The notes under the pieces: model-generated
Databases searched by the model: none
Seen by the model: only the letters and a program-made list of their open reading frames with translations
Told to the model about the DNA's origin: nothing
Assembly (NCBI GenBank): GCA_002104895.1
Contig: MCFG01000403.1
Location: 1-60,490, forward strand
Direction of reading: 5' to 3'
Source: Anaeromyces robustus
Taxonomy: Eukaryota
DNA: 60,490 nt
Shown here: positions 4,271 to 23,600 of the stretch, piece by piece
Position numbering within the stretch: position 1 is the stretch's first letter
Layout of the letters: the number at the start of each line of letters is the position of its first letter
Position numbers and translations under genes: made by a program

Positions 4271-7200
4271 TTAATTTAGAAATGAAAGTTTCATTATTTT
4301 TGGGTATCTAATATTTAAATGATTTCCTTCGTACGTTTTTTTACATTCTTTTTGTAATTTTTTATAAAGATAATAATAAAATAGTTTTCCTTCATAATGA
4401 AAAGTACAATCCCATTGACATTCTATATTGCAATTATTTAATAATGTATTATCAACAGAAAAAAAAAAAAAAGAAAACAAGAAAAAAGAAGTTAAGAATA
4501 ATAATAATAATTAATACGAAATATATTAAATTAATAAATTTCAACAATTATTTATATATAAAAATAGGATATCTTTCAAAAAATGTCATTAATGATGCTA
4601 CTATAGTTAGATTTTTATTTTTGCTAATATGCCAACATAATGATTCAATGATCATATTTTGAATTTTTTTTATGAATTTTATTAATTGTTCATAAAACTC
4701 ATAATCTTCATTAAAACTAATGGATTTAATATTACAGTTTGTATAATTAAAAAGCTCTATCCAATGTTGTATCAATTCTTTTATATCTTTCTCATTTATA
4801 ATTATATCATTGCTATTTGATGCATTATATTGATCATTTTTTTTTGCTTGTGATTCATAGTTAATACTAAAATTATTAGTGGATTTTGGTGATTCGATTC
4901 TCTGACTTATATTAATGAAGTTTAATTGATTATTATAATTATTATTGTTACTCTTATTAAATTGACTTGATGAAGGTAGACTATTTTTATTATTTAATTT
5001 ATTATTTACTAAAGTTTCATTTTGATTGTTATCTTTTATAATACTAATTAATTCTAGTGAATCGCGATTTTGATTATTATTATTATTATTATTATTATTA
5101 TTATTATTTTTATTGTTATTATTATTCCAAAATTGTGTTAAAGTTACTGGTTCTTTTTTCTTTTCATTTTTCTTGTGATATATTTGAAATAATTCTTCTT
5201 GAATATCAATTGGTAATTCATTCATAACATCCATATCAATCTATAATTATTTAAAATTAAAAAAAAATTATAATATATATATATTATAATTATTAGTTAT
5301 AATACTTTTTTATTATGACATTATTATTGATTATTATTTTCAATATTTATACCTTTGAAGGTGATGGTAATAATTTATCAATTGCATTCTCTTTATTATT
5401 AATAGTTTTTGTATTGTTATTATTTGTTATATTAGTAGTTTTCTTTTTTCTTCCTCTTTTCTTCTTTTCACCTATTTTATTTTGAATATCTTTTGATTGC
5501 TTATTTTGATTATTAGTAATTATACTATTAACTATATTATTATTATTATTATTATTATTATTATTATTATTATTATAATTTTGATTAATAGCATTGTTTA
5601 TGTTGTTATTAAATTGATAAAATTGAATGACTTCATCTTGAATTGATTTTGGTAAAGCGTTTAGTACTGATAGATCTATTTTATCTTTGGAAATATTCAT
5701 TAATTTATTTATATTATCCTTATCATTATTATTATTACTATTACTATTATTATTATTATTATTATTATTATTATTATTATTATTATTATTATTATTATTA
5801 TTATTATTATTATTATAATTATTATTATTATTTTTCGAAGTATTATCATTATTTAACAATGGGTTATTTTTAAGTTTTTTATTTTTATTTTCTTCCATAT
5901 TAAAGAATAATTTTTGTTGACTATCTATTAATATTAATATAACATAACATAATATAATATAATATTTTGTTAAAAAGATATATATTGTAAAATAATATCA
6001 TAATTATATTTTAAAATTAAAATTATAATAATTATAAATGTTTTTACCCGGAAGATCTGATAATTCTTTTAATTTCGATAATTGAATTCCTATTCCTCTA
6101 ATATCCTAATAGAAGATGTTTAGATAAAATATTATTTTTATAAATTCAATCATTTATAGAATATATATATAAATATAAATATAAATTAAGTTACTTTAGG
6201 ATTTAATTTTAGGTTATTAATAATTTCCCATGAAAGCTTTGCAATATCTTCTGATTTATAAATATACATATTTAAATTTCTGGATTTTGAAAGATTTCTA
6301 CAACTACCATGCCCAAGACGTTTTAAAGGTTTATCTGCATTTTCTTCTCTTATTTTTAATTTAATAGTTAATTTTTGACCTTTTTTATTTTCATTTTCCA
6401 TTCTTTTCGATACTTCCTTGGAAATTTCTTTAATGAACGCCTAGTAAAAAATATTTTTAATAATAAATAAATAAATAAATAAATAAATAAATAAATAAAT
6501 AAATAAATAAATAAATAAATAAATAAATAAATAAATAAATAAATAAATAAATAAATAAATAAATAAATAAATAAATAAATAAATAAATAAATAATAATAA
6601 TAATAATAATAATAATAATAATAATAATAATAATAATAATAATAATAATAATAATAATAATAATAATAATAATAATAATAATAATAATAATAATAATAAA
6701 AATAATAATAATAATAATAATAATAATAATAATAATAATAATAATAATAATAATAATAATAATAATAATAATAATAATAATAATAATAATAATAATAATA
6801 ATAATAATAATAATAATAATAATAATAATAATAATAATAATAATAATAATAATAATAATAATAATAATAATAATAATAATAATAATAATAATAATAATAA
6901 TAATATTTTTATTATAATTATTATAATTATAATAATCTATAAATATATATATTTTACTTTGAATTGGTCATTATTTGAAAACCGAATACCCCATGTTATT
7001 TCTGCTGAAATTGATCTTCTTTCACTATTTTCACTATTTAATTCTCTATTATCGATTCCTCTATAAAAACAAAAAAGTTATTATATTTTTTTAATATTAA
7101 ATTAAAAGTTTTAATTAATTAGAAATATTAGTTATAATAATATTTATATAAATAATGATCAAGATAATATTTATAATCTATTTTTAAATTTATATTATAT

Positions 7201-20661: not shown

Positions 20662-23600
20662 ATGATATCAACAAAAAAGTCTAGATTTAATTCTAGTAAA
20701 ATAAATAGGCCAAATGAAAAAACACCGTTTAGAACATTGTAATATATAAAATAATTGATAAAAATCTAGTACTTATTTTTCTAAATAAATTTTAATTTGA
20801 TTAATTTATAATATATATATATATTGTATATTATATATATATTATATTTATGAAACAATTATTATTATATCCATAATTAAGATTACATGACCGAGGCTTA
20901 TTTTCACCAGATAAAACGTCTATACCAATAGCAAATTATTCAAAGCCTGATATTAGAAATGATTTAAAATTTGAAACAATAAATACCATAAGAGAAAATG
21001 TTTACCATCATAGAGATTCTACAAGACCTAAATTTTTAACACAAATGATAGCTTATATAAAAAAGGAATTTGCAGAACTAGGAATTGAAGAGTATGAATA
21101 CAAATATATATAGAACAATATATACACGAATAATTGATATTAATTTATTTTATATGTGTATTATTATATTTGATATTTTGTTAATTAAAGTTCAAAACCT
21201 GGATGCATGGAAAGATTACAAGTATACAAAACAGTTTTCGGTAATTTTATTAGAAAGTTTTATTGTTAATGTATAAATCATATATTATTATGTAAATAAT
21301 AATATTAATAAAAAATAAATATATATATAATCTATAATCATATATATATTCATTTTTTTAAAAAGATTTTTTTATGGAAGAATTTAAAACCTATCAACCT
21401 ATATTAAGTGATATAAAAAATGAATATGAATTAAATTTACAAAATGCATTAAAAATAGAAGATGAATAATATCCTTTTATTATATATACTTATATTTTAT
21501 AAAAAGAAAGGAAATTGATGGAAGATATTATTAAATATTTGCTTTTAATATTAATGTATTAATTCTTAACTAATAATAATATTATAATTTACTTATTAAA
21601 TACTCATTTGATTAAAAGTAAATATTCAGTATTAAAATATCAATCAGAAAAACAAATTGAAGAATTAAAACAATTATCAAAAAATGAATATGAAGAACAG
21701 ATGTAATAAATTATTATAATAAAAAAAGCTTTTATTTACCATATATATTAAATTATATTGCAGTATTAGTGTAGTTAATATTGTTTATTTATTTATATTA
21801 TTTATTATTAATAAAAAAAATAAGTAATAAATTAAATAGAGAAATTGAAAGATCAAAAAATATTATAAGAGAACTTAATAATGAAAAAGAATTATTAGAA
21901 GATAAAATTGATAAATTGGAAATTGCAGAAGTTAACGATGTAAATATAATTATTAATAGTTAATTGAATTTGTTTTTCTATGGAAAAATTATATATTAAA
22001 AATAAACTCAAATATAAATATTAAAAATAAATAGGAGCGTTTAACAAATCGTGTATATCATTTAGAACAAGAACTTGAACGTACAAATAAATACTGTTCT
22101 GAATTAATACAACAAAAGGATGCAGAATTAGAAAGACTACACGATAATGTTAAAAGCAGTACGTCTTATTATATTATAAAATTTTCATATTTTTCATTTT
22201 TTTTTCATTTTGATTTATTATTAGTTTTAATTTTAAATAATTATATATTTCTTAATATGTAATATATTTTTGTAAAAAAATATTAGTGGATTATAGAATA
22301 TTCTCTTTAACGAATTTAAATGCAGATTTAAAGAAAAAAATGGGAAAAGTATAGAAATTTTTATTTATATTAATATCAATATACATATATATGCTTGTTA
22401 GTTACCTATAAAATATTTTATTTATTGTAATTATATATAATAAATTTTTTCTCATTAATTAAAAAAATGAATTTTAAAAAAAGATGGTGTCAATAGATTT
22501 ATATCATTCAGTATCAACAAAACTAGAAAAATGTGAAGATGAATTGAAAGATTTTAAAATGTTAAATGAAAATATGGTAAAATATTTTATGTAGATTATT
22601 ATTGTTTTATATAATCAAATATATATGCAAATATATATGATAAATTTGATAAATTGACATATGAAACTATAATTATAATATATATAGATAATGCAAAATA
22701 TTCAAAAGGAAAGTTTATCTTTTAGATCAGCGCTAAAACAAAATGGAAATGGTGTAGATGATTTTGAAATTGATTGGGGAGTTATTCAATCTTTATGTCC
22801 TGGGATTAATGTTATTAATTATAAGAGAGTGATTGATAAAATGGATCTAAATAATATAATTACTTATTTCATAAAAAAATTAAATTCGGTAGGTTATATT
22901 ATTTAAAATAATATAATATTAATAAAGAATGTATATTTTTACCAAATATTTTATTATTAATTATCCAAAAAATATATAAAAAGAATGATTTACAATCACC
23001 AGATAGTAAAGAGGGGAATGAAAAGTAAAAAATTTTATAATATTTATTGTAAAATATTTTTAAAATTATATAAGAATACTAAGTATTTTAAAAATTATTA
23101 TCAGTTTCAATCAAGATTCAATGAATTATTTCAATGGGTTAGGTTTACAATCACATATACCAAAGTATTTAAGGTAATATTAATTTGAATTTTTTTATCA
23201 AATATTTTTAGTTCATCATAATAATATAATTAGTCATTTCTATTAATTTTATAAGATATGAAGGAAGAATAGTTAATAGAATGTTAAATAGAAGAAGTTG
23301 CATAATGTTAATTAATGATATATGGAAGGCTAAAAGTTTATATGAAATCTCACAAAAGAAGAGTGAAACAGCTAAAAAAGTTGTTAAAGTAATAATATAT
23401 AGATAATTAAAATTAAAAAAAAAAAAAAAAAAAAAAAAGGAAAAAAAAATAAAAAATATAAAAATGTAATAAAGGATATGAATGTTTAAAATTTTAAAGA
23501 ATTAATTAATATTTTAATATATATATTTTATAAATTCATTACAATTATAAAAAAAAAGATTTCATTACCAGAATTCCTTTATTTATATTTGAAGAAAAGA

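What the first reader, a model, noticed from the sequence alone, without database searches (positions are those of the whole stretch)
4446..21603. Possible lineage-specific minor splicing system: variant branch site, long branch-to-acceptor spacing, high density
Seen in sequence: both AT-AC introns share TTCTTAAC rather than canonical TCCTTAAC. The motif ends 45 nt (REV1) and 33 nt (TSNAXIP1) before the intron end. Known: typical U12 introns have a spacing of roughly 10-20 nt and lack a pyrimidine tract, and most Dikarya have lost the minor spliceosome while several early-diverging fungi retain it. Two of roughly 95 introns I traced are AT-AC, above the sub-1% typical of animals, although the sample is tiny. 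Inference: this AT-rich genome may have an expanded or modified U12 system with U2-like 3' splice-site selection.
Basis: partly seen in the sequence, partly recalled or inferred. Interest (0 to 1): 0.72.

Follow-up and report, generated by a model that had tools for sequence, protein, structure and literature searches.

The report
Two minor-spliceosome introns, gut fungus
Two genes of a very AT-rich anaerobic gut fungus each carry a genuine AT-AC "minor" intron whose branch-site motif lies unusually far from the intron end, but this fungal group is already known to have minor splicing, and two introns cannot show that its system is altered.

Summary
The REV1 intron (minus strand, 4572..4446, 127 nt) and the TSNAXIP1-like intron (plus strand, 21469..21603, 135 nt) begin with ATATCCT and end with AC. 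Both contain the same 9-mer, ATTCTTAAC, ending 45 and 33 nt before the intron end. Orthologous gene models from Neocallimastix and Piromyces run without a gap across both exon junctions. No GT-AG solution exists, and an unconstrained junction scan ranks AT-AC first in both genes. The motif pairing is rarely reached by chance (5 of 1000 simulations). Eight neighbouring GT-AG introns have nothing similar.

Published surveys already report minor introns and U11, U12 and U6atac genes in Neocallimastigomycetes, at an ordinary density (129 introns, 0.2%, in N. californiae). TTCTTAAC differs from TCCTTAAC by one C-to-T change that should still pair with a standard U12 through a G-U wobble. A pyrimidine tract is present in only one of the two introns, and local major introns have none, so "U2-like acceptor selection" is not supported.

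The long spacing is real but rests on two introns. No genome, snRNA or read-level data could be examined here. It remains possible that the whole lineage has longer spacing, which published censuses would under-score.

The parts
4446..4572 (-). U12-type AT-AC intron of the REV1 gene, 127 nt, phase 2
   Evidence: Sequence read. N. lanati ortholog model P0003 aligns residues 1-78 to 4805..4572 and residues 79-131 to 4444..4286 with no gap. AT-AC is the top solution among 1721 in-frame, stop-free junctions; it ties with two 1-2 nt shifts that give the same mRNA.
4564..4572 (-). 5' splice site ATATCCTAT (7 of 8 matches to ATATCCTT)
   Evidence: The readthrough ORF P0001 from a Neocallimastix-like contig continues ...FFER-YPFKNL. 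That back-translates to ATATCCnTTy at the same codon position.
4491..4498 (-). Branch-site-like motif TTCTTAAC (9-mer ATTCTTAAC); the candidate branch adenosines lie 46-47 nt from the last intron base
   Evidence: one mismatch to TCCTTAAC.
4457..4490 (-). T-rich pyrimidine run (33 of 34 bases are C or T) between branch motif and acceptor; no AC or AG occurs before the terminal AC
   Evidence: Pyrimidine fraction 0.84 for positions -40..-4.
4274..4445 (-). Last coding exon of REV1 (C-terminal domain); stop codon at 4273..4271
   Evidence: 83% identity to P0003 residues 79-131. P0003 has a weak REV1_C match (E 0.023, below cutoff) over residues 54-92, which spans the junction.
4573..4805 (-). 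3' part of the penultimate REV1 exon, conserved with Neocallimastix
   Evidence: (64% identity to P0003 residues 1-78).
6186..9836 (-). Upstream REV1 exons carrying BRCT, Y-family polymerase (IMS), HhH/thumb and IMS_C domains
   Evidence: Pfam hits: BRCT_2 at 9648-9836, IMS at 8490-8618 and 7607-7891, IMS_HHH_1 and POLH-Rev1_HhH at 7200-7373, IMS_C at 6186-6440.
21469..21603 (+). U12-type AT-AC intron of the TSNAXIP1-like gene, 135 nt, phase 2
   Evidence: Sequence read. P. finnis ortholog P0004 aligns across the junction (residues 115-148 and 150-182). No GT-AG solution exists for this junction, while 8 other junctions of the gene gave clean GT-AG solutions. AT-AC is the top of 780 unconstrained solutions.
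21469..21477 (+). 5' splice site ATATCCTTT (full consensus)
21563..21570 (+). Branch-site-like motif TTCTTAAC (9-mer ATTCTTAAC); the candidate branch adenosines lie 34-35 nt from the last intron base
21591..21592 (+). AC dinucleotide 22 nt after the motif. The productive mRNA does not use it; using it would shift the frame into a stop codon
   Evidence: Reading. The junction scan does not return it.
21366..21468 (+). Exon upstream of the intron, inside the TSNAXIP1_N domain
   Evidence: Pfam PF15739, E 8e-07, profile positions 32-58. The GT-AG intron 21241..21365 precedes it.
21604..21702 (+). Exon downstream of the intron
   Evidence: the next GT-AG intron is 21703..21824. In P0004 the TSNAXIP1_N match covers residues 85-173 and so runs through the junction.

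Best explanation
These are two ordinary-in-kind U12-type (minor-spliceosome) AT-AC introns in a Neocallimastigomycota-like anaerobic gut fungus.

Inferred mechanism: the U11/U12 di-snRNP recognises the ATATCCT 5' splice site and the TTCTTAAC branch sequence. One adenosine of TTAAC forms the lariat. The second step then uses a TAC acceptor 33 or 45 nt further downstream.

TTCTTAAC is the consensus TCCTTAAC with one C-to-T transition. That is the expected drift in a genome of about 15% G+C, and it should still pair with an unchanged U12 through a G-U wobble.

The long spacing is a real feature of these two introns. Whether it is typical of the lineage is unknown.

Shown here: the intron boundaries, the motifs, the spacing, conservation of the REV1 5' site in Neocallimastix, and the contrast with local major introns.

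Inferred: dependence on the minor spliceosome, which adenosine is the branch point, and tolerance of the wobble pair.
For: Boundaries:
- Ortholog models run across both junctions without a gap.
- No GT-AG solution exists for the TSNAXIP1 junction.
- AT-AC ranks first of 780 and of 1721 unconstrained junctions.
- Pfam domain matches in the orthologs span the junctions.

Intron type:
- The 5' sites are ATATCCTAT and ATATCCTTT.
- Each intron has a one-mismatch branch motif, against at least 3 mismatches in 8 of 8 local GT-AG introns.
- The motif pairing was reached in 5 of 1000 simulations.

Conservation: the P0001 readthrough implies ATATCC at the same site in Neocallimastix.

Lineage:
- Best protein hits are to Piromyces finnis (81%) and Neocallimastix (64%).
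- G+C is 9-20%, and a GH10 xylanase is present.

Literature:
- Minor introns and snRNAs are reported in Neocallimastigomycetes (PMC10639083 section 24).
- N. californiae has 129 minor introns and Rfam-level U11, U12 and U6atac genes (PMC11347168 text, Tables S4 and S7).
- A rice U12-type intron carries TTTTTCTTAACT (PMC7367187 Table 1).
Against: - No RNA reads were laid, so both junctions rest on reading frame and orthologous protein models.
- The spacing (33 and 45 nt) lies far outside the 11-13 nt optimum and the classical 10-20 nt range.
- In the TSNAXIP1 intron, an AC 22 nt after the motif is passed over, which a simple nearest-acceptor rule does not explain.
- The REV1 intron has a long pyrimidine run, which is not typical of U12-type introns.
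- No snRNA is present in the window and no genome was available. The minor spliceosome of this particular organism is therefore assumed from relatives.
Confidence: 0.8

Rival explanations
1. A lineage-wide shift. In anaerobic gut fungi, minor introns generally use TTCTTAAC and a relaxed or longer branch-to-acceptor distance. The U12 snRNA might carry a compensating G-to-A change, as in the co-evolved Physarum system.
For: - Both of the 2 introns found show the same variant 9-mer and a spacing above 30 nt. That is improbable if the spacing distribution resembled the human one (optimum 11-13 nt).
- There is a precedent for co-evolution of branch motif and U12 in Physarum (preprint 10.1101/2020.10.12.336362, passages).
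- Published pipelines search for the branch 12-mer only in -40..-1 (PMC11347168 section 7) or -55..-5 (PMC7367187). They would miss or clip these motifs, so such a shift could have gone unnoticed.
Against: - The sample is two introns, picked because they looked odd.
- The variant needs no snRNA change, because a G-U wobble suffices.
- The N. californiae U12 passes Rfam's threshold.
- Another fungus, Rhizophagus, is reported to have motifs that closely follow those of animals and plants.
- None of the texts I read reports unusual spacing.
Confidence: 0.2
2. The true branch points lie closer to the acceptors. TTCTTAAC is either coincidental or serves only to recruit U12.
For: - A weak TTRAY-like element (TCTGTTGAT) ends 5 nt before the REV1 acceptor.
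- An A/T-rich element (TTATAAT) ends 15 nt before the TSNAXIP1 acceptor (my reading).
Against: - The best match to TCCTTAAC in the last 60 nt of each intron is TTCTTAAC with one mismatch; every closer element matches less well.
- Matches as good as TTCTTAAC (at most one mismatch) occur in only 1.6% of random 60-nt windows, and the identical 9-mer is present in both introns.
- The REV1 alternative would place the branch about 7 nt from the acceptor, which is too close.
Confidence: 0.07
3. These are hybrid or major-spliceosome introns: AT-AC introns removed, fully or at their 3' end, by U2-type machinery.
For: - The REV1 intron has a 34-nt pyrimidine run before the acceptor.
- The branch-to-acceptor distances fall in the range typical of major introns.
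- PMC11347168 defines hybrid and minor-like classes and counts 1711 and 264 such introns in N. californiae.
Against: - U2-type AT-AC introns have U2-like 5' sites (PMC1557818). Here both 5' sites are ATATCCT.
- The TSNAXIP1 intron has no pyrimidine tract, and neither do 8 of 8 local GT-AG introns. A tract is therefore not this genome's major-type signal.
Confidence: 0.05
4. This is a gene-model artefact: the downstream exons are not joined as proposed, and REV1 ends at the readthrough stop.
For: - Readthrough of the REV1 5' site reaches a stop after 8 codons.
- A database ORF (P0001) is called in exactly that way.
Against: - The N. lanati model P0003 joins the same two exons, and the downstream exon is 83% identical.
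- P. finnis P0004 is continuous across the TSNAXIP1 junction, inside a Pfam domain.
Confidence: 0.02

Closest known systems
Canonical U12-type AT-AC introns of animals and plants
   Same: ATATCCT 5' splice site, a TCCTTAAC-like branch sequence, AC terminus, a phase other than 0, and location in a DNA-repair ("information processing") gene, REV1.
   Different: The branch motif lies 33 and 45 nt from the acceptor, against an optimum of 11-13 nt (PMC3584512). The first C of the motif is T. One of the two introns has a pyrimidine run.
Minor introns reported in Neocallimastigomycetes (Larue & Roy 2023, PMC10639083; Olthof et al. 2024, PMC11347168)
   Same: Same fungal clade. Minor introns and U11, U12 and U6atac genes have already been reported there, at a density of 0.2% in N. 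californiae.
   Different: In the sections, passages and tables I read, those papers give counts only. They list no motif or spacing details for this clade. Their branch-search windows (-55..-5 and -40..-1) clip or exclude the motifs seen here.
Transformed minor system of Physarum polycephalum (preprint 10.1101/2020.10.12.336362)
   Same: A lineage-specific variant of the branch motif in which C is replaced by T. It is the precedent for the idea that U12 may co-evolve with its target.
   Different: Physarum has more than 20,000 such introns, a TTTGA motif 9-12 nt from the acceptor (short spacing, not long), and a demonstrated U12 change. None of these is shown here.
U2-type AT-AC introns and the hybrid / minor-like classes
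   Same: AT-AC termini, and for REV1 a pyrimidine tract with a distant branch motif.
   Different: The 5' sites here are fully U12-type, not U2-like with A at +1 (PMC1557818).

Membership tests
U12-type (minor) intron | 5' splice site [A/G]TATCCTT | tested here: met
   ATATCCTAT (7 of 8) and ATATCCTTT (8 of 8). Of the 27 [AG]TATCC[TA] sites in the window, these are the only two followed by such a branch motif.
U12-type (minor) intron | Branch sequence TCCTTRAY near the 3' end | tested here: met
   TTCTTAAC, one mismatch, in 2 of 2 introns. 8 of 8 local GT-AG introns have at least 3 mismatches. 1.6% of random 60-nt windows reach one mismatch or fewer.
U12-type (minor) intron | Branch sequence 10-20 nt from the 3' splice site (typical rather than strictly defining; PMC1557818 says it is not always necessary) | tested here: not met
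   33 and 45 nt from the motif end to the last intron base.
U12-type (minor) intron | No distinct polypyrimidine tract | tested here: inconclusive
   Met for TSNAXIP1 (pyrimidine fraction 0.54). Not met for REV1 (0.84)..
U12-type (minor) intron | AT-AC or GT-AG termini at a verified exon junction | tested here: met
   Verified against ortholog protein models only. No reads were laid.
U12-type (minor) intron | Removal depends on U11, U12, U4atac and U6atac | not testable with these tools
   No genome is held and the window contains no snRNA. Relatives have these genes according to PMC11347168 Table S7.
Lineage-specific transformed minor system (Physarum-like) | Altered branch consensus across many introns | not testable with these tools
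   Only 2 introns are available. All five scans for related DNA found nothing related.
Lineage-specific transformed minor system (Physarum-like) | Compensating change in the U12 snRNA | not testable with these tools
   I could not see a U12 sequence for this organism or for any relative. Table S7 gives only coordinates.
Lineage-specific transformed minor system (Physarum-like) | Greatly raised minor-intron density | not tested
   Not measured here. For the relative N. californiae the published density is 0.2% (129 of about 63,800 introns).
U2-type AT-AC intron | U2-like 5' site apart from A at +1 | tested here: not met
   Both 5' sites are ATATCCT. The local GT-AG introns start GTAA or GTAT.

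The most novel reading that the evidence does not exclude
Anaerobic gut fungi as a group run a minor spliceosome with a shifted branch consensus (TTCTTAAC) and a relaxed branch-to-acceptor distance of 30-50 nt. Their U12 snRNA may carry a compensating G-to-A change. Published censuses look for the branch motif only within 40 or 55 nt of the acceptor. They would therefore under-score these introns and undercount the minor introns of the clade.
Probability: 0.2. Interest if true: 0.55.

Novelty: new member of a known kind. Interest (0 to 1): 0.3.

Why it matters
If only these two introns are unusual, the result is routine: two more minor introns in a clade already known to have them. It still helps gene annotation, because the N. 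lanati counterpart of the REV1 C-terminus is filed as a separate 131-residue hypothetical protein.

If long spacing proves typical of the clade, it would show that the distance constraint on the minor spliceosome's second step is not universal. It would also mean that current classifiers miss part of the minor introns in extremely AT-rich genomes.

Tried and rejected
- **Whole genome.** None is held for this window.
- **Rfam on the window.** No match at the gathering thresholds.
- **RNA reads.** I draw no conclusion from the run list.
- **Related DNA.** Five related-loci scans returned nothing related:
  - metagenome contigs with the REV1 exon;
  - metagenome contigs with P0001, whose only locus, L001, has 41% G+C and a 24-residue match and is unrelated;
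  - prokaryote genome contigs with P0004 and with P0003;
  - viral contigs with P0004.
- **Protein searches.** The REV1 exon against longer proteins gave no hit. The readthrough ORF 4274-4510 against proteins of similar length gave no hit. The representative library gave 2 hits: P0001, which was useful, and P0002, a repeat protein that I disregarded.
- **Other U12-like sites.**
  - I inspected 15 of the other 25 [AG]TATCC[TA] sites individually. They are coding, antisense to genes, or lack a branch motif.
  - A relaxed scan gave 268 combinations, and the ATTCTTAAC 9-mer appeared only in the two introns.
  - The nearest look-alike (12392, ATATCTTTT with AGTCTTAAC) lies inside the continuous 130-residue ORF 12256-12648, so I rejected it.
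  - The single exact TCCTTAAC (19063-19070, minus strand) is antisense to a 449-residue ORF.
- **RNA structure.** No fold brings branch motif and acceptor together (z-scores 0.40 and -0.66 for the spacers, -0.38 and -1.53 for the whole introns).
- **Human orthology.**
  - Searches for TSNAXIP1 with "minor intron" (0 papers) and for REV1 with "U12-type" (2 irrelevant papers) gave nothing.
  - Neither gene symbol, nor the Ensembl ids I recalled for them, appear in the supplement of PMC11347168.
  - This is weak evidence, because the ids are from memory.
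Full report
**What the window is**

The window has 9-20% G+C throughout. Its open frames encode:
- a GH10 xylanase
- a cyclic-nucleotide phosphodiesterase
- mitochondrial carriers
- a SUN-domain protein
- a Y-family DNA polymerase

The closest proteins in the databases come from anaerobic gut fungi. One is a Piromyces finnis TSNAXIP1-like protein, P0004, 81% identical over a 78-residue exon. 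The other is a cluster holding Neocallimastix lanati KAG4094996.1, 64% identical to the REV1 exon. I therefore read the source as a member of, or close relative of, the Neocallimastigomycota. No whole genome is held for the window.

**The two introns**

*REV1 intron, minus strand.* The REV1 gene is recognisable from a chain of Pfam domains: BRCT (9648-9836), IMS (8490-8618 and 7607-7891), the HhH/thumb domain (7200-7373) and IMS_C (6186-6440).
- Its penultimate exon ends ...GAAAG at 4573.
- The next bases are ATATCCTAT.
- TTCTTAAC lies at 4498..4491.
- A 34-nt run follows in which 33 bases are pyrimidines.
- The intron ends ...GATAATAC at 4446.
- No AC or AG occurs between the motif and that final AC.

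*TSNAXIP1-like intron, plus strand.*
- The exon ends ...GAATA at 21468.
- The intron starts ATATCCTTT.
- TTCTTAAC lies at 21563..21570.
- The intron ends ...TTAAATAC at 21603.

Both introns are phase 2. They are 127 and 135 nt long, within the range of the neighbouring GT-AG introns (76-151 nt).

**Are the junctions right?**

I could not lay reads (see limits below), so the test is by orthologs.

*REV1.*
- The N. lanati model P0003 (131 residues) aligns residues 1-78 to 4805..4572 and residues 79-131 to 4444..4286. There is no gap in the protein.
- P0003 has a weak REV1_C match (E 0.023, below Pfam's cutoff) over residues 54-92, which spans the junction.

*TSNAXIP1.*
- P. finnis P0004 aligns residues 115-148 and 150-182 on the two sides of the intron.
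- Its TSNAXIP1_N domain match (residues 85-173, E 1e-12) runs through the junction.

*Junction search in the TSNAXIP1-like gene* (13 junctions between adjacent blocks):
- 8 gave clean GT-AG introns.
- 4 were unresolved, because more than one intron or a divergent stretch lay between the blocks.
- The junction at issue gave no GT-AG solution at all.

*Unconstrained search.* With the terminal dinucleotides left free, AT-AC at 21469/21603 scored best of 780 in-frame, stop-free solutions. AT-AC at 4572/4446 scored best of 1721. The latter tied with two 1-2 nt shifts that give the same mRNA.

*Conservation of the REV1 5' site.* P0001 is an ORF called on a JGI/IMG contig. It is identical to P0003 up to the junction and then reads on as YPFKNL.... 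That implies ATATCCnTTy at the same codon position in Neocallimastix. The U12-type 5' site of the REV1 intron is therefore conserved between genera.

**Is the branch motif more than chance?**

- Each motif alone is at chance frequency in this A+T-rich DNA.
- ATATCCT followed within 30-250 nt by TTCTTAAC occurs twice. The simulated mean is 0.08, and 5 of 1000 simulations reach two.
- The best match to TCCTTAAC in the last 60 nt has one mismatch in both AT-AC introns. It has three or four mismatches in all 8 GT-AG introns of the same gene. One mismatch or fewer is reached in 1.6% of 20,000 random windows.
- Both introns carry the identical 9-mer ATTCTTAAC.

Other candidate sites did not hold up:
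- No other [AG]TATCC[TA] site in the window (27 in all) has exon context together with such a motif.
- The only exact TCCTTAAC is antisense to a long ORF.

The window therefore holds two U12-type introns, both of the AT-AC subtype.

**How it most likely works**

The 5' sites are those bound by U11 and later by U6atac. The branch motif differs from the consensus only at the first C.

In the accepted pairing scheme that C faces a G of U12. I give this scheme from established knowledge. The Physarum preprint describes the same binding stretch and how two transitions in it match a changed branch motif. A T at this position gives a G-U wobble, so no change in U12 is required. A C-to-T change is also the expected direction of drift in a genome of about 15% G+C.

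The unusual step is the second one, where the acceptor lies 34-35 or 46-47 nt from the candidate branch adenosines.
- In REV1 the used acceptor is the first AC or AG after the motif.
- In TSNAXIP1 an AC at +22 is passed over in the productive mRNA. A plain "first acceptor" rule therefore does not fit, unless that site is also used and the frameshifted product is degraded. Only reads can tell.
- No RNA structure shortens either spacer.

*Existence of a minor system.* This is supported for the clade, but it is already in print.
- Olthof et al. 2024 give 129 minor introns (0.2%) for N. californiae in the text.
- Their Table S4 lists 129 minor, 264 minor-like, 1711 hybrid, 28,055 major-like, 32,807 major and 815 non-canonical introns.
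- Their Table S7 lists one U11, one U12 and two U6atac genes above Rfam's threshold, and only lower-confidence U4atac candidates.

*High density.* This is not supported. 0.2% is ordinary, and two introns within 17 kb is what a scan of many windows will occasionally turn up.

*U2-like acceptor selection.* This is not supported. The pyrimidine run is present in one intron only. The GT-AG introns nearby have no such tract (pyrimidine fraction 0.32-0.59). A tract is therefore not the local major-type signal.

The same core occurs in a rice U12-type intron listed in PMC7367187 Table 1.

**What remains open**

The spacing stands out.
- Reviews give an optimum of 11-13 nt (PMC3584512).
- Classifiers have used 8-30 or 8-38 nt (PMC1557818), -55..-5 (intronIC) and -40..-1.
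- Counted as the 12-mer those tools score, the REV1 motif spans about -56..-45 and the TSNAXIP1 motif about -44..-33.
- The first falls outside both current windows, and the second falls outside the narrower one.

If such spacing were common in gut fungi, published counts would be too low and the clade's distance constraint would be relaxed. Two of two introns point that way. But two introns, chosen because they looked odd, cannot establish it. I put this reading at about 0.2.

**Limits**

- I had no genome, no snRNA sequence, and no related DNA from any collection.
- For each paper I saw only this:
  - PMC10639083: outline, section 24, and passages from the text and its one supplementary PDF.
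  - PMC11347168: section 7, passages, and supplementary rows from Tables S1, S2, S4, S7 and S8.
  - PMC7367187, PMC3584512, PMC1557818 and the Physarum preprint: passages only.
- No paper in the two searches aimed at the clade describes branch spacing in these fungi. That covers only the open library searched.

**Verdict**

These are two new members of a known kind, in a clade where that kind is already documented. They have one real oddity, long branch-to-acceptor spacing, that deserves a genome-wide census. Interest 0.3.

Noticed in passing
4446-4491 (minus strand) and 21570-21603 (plus strand): In both introns the spacer after TTCTTAAC is a multiple of three (45 and 33 nt) and contains no stop codon in the frame of the downstream exon. 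The AC that ends TTCTTAAC would therefore be an in-frame alternative acceptor, adding 15 or 11 codons. The orthologs P0003 and P0004 have no such insert. This may be coincidence.
   Followed up: partly
21591-21592, plus strand: An AC 22 nt after the branch motif lies closer to the usual U12 spacing than the acceptor actually used. Using it would shift the frame into a stop. It could give an unproductive isoform.
   Followed up: no
whole window: YCCTTRAY occurs 4 times against 11.08 expected from shuffles, and all 100 shuffles had at least 4. The canonical minor branch motif looks depleted in this DNA. The cause was not examined.
   Followed up: no
4274-4805, minus strand, compared with P0003: The N. 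lanati counterpart of the REV1 C-terminal two exons is annotated as a separate 131-residue hypothetical protein. The REV1 gene model there is probably split. In the window, about 1.4 kb of Asn-rich low-complexity coding sequence separates IMS_C from this part.
   Followed up: no
6462-6905 and 15014-15278: Long low-complexity repeats made of words that recur more than 12 times. The first lies in an Asn-rich stretch of REV1.
   Followed up: partly
35653-36786 (plus strand); 16433-18307 (plus strand); 38610-40184 (plus strand); 60190-60489 (minus strand): GH10 xylanase (E 5e-87), class I cyclic-nucleotide phosphodiesterase (E 3e-66) and a mitochondrial carrier split by an intron (all). A protein-kinase-like exon lies at the window's end (translation).
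   Followed up: no
24392, plus strand: ATATCCTAC here is coding sequence of the TSNAXIP1-like gene (the codons read E-Y-P-T and align to P0004 residues 587-626). It shows how easily the 5' motif arises by chance in this genome.
   Followed up: yes
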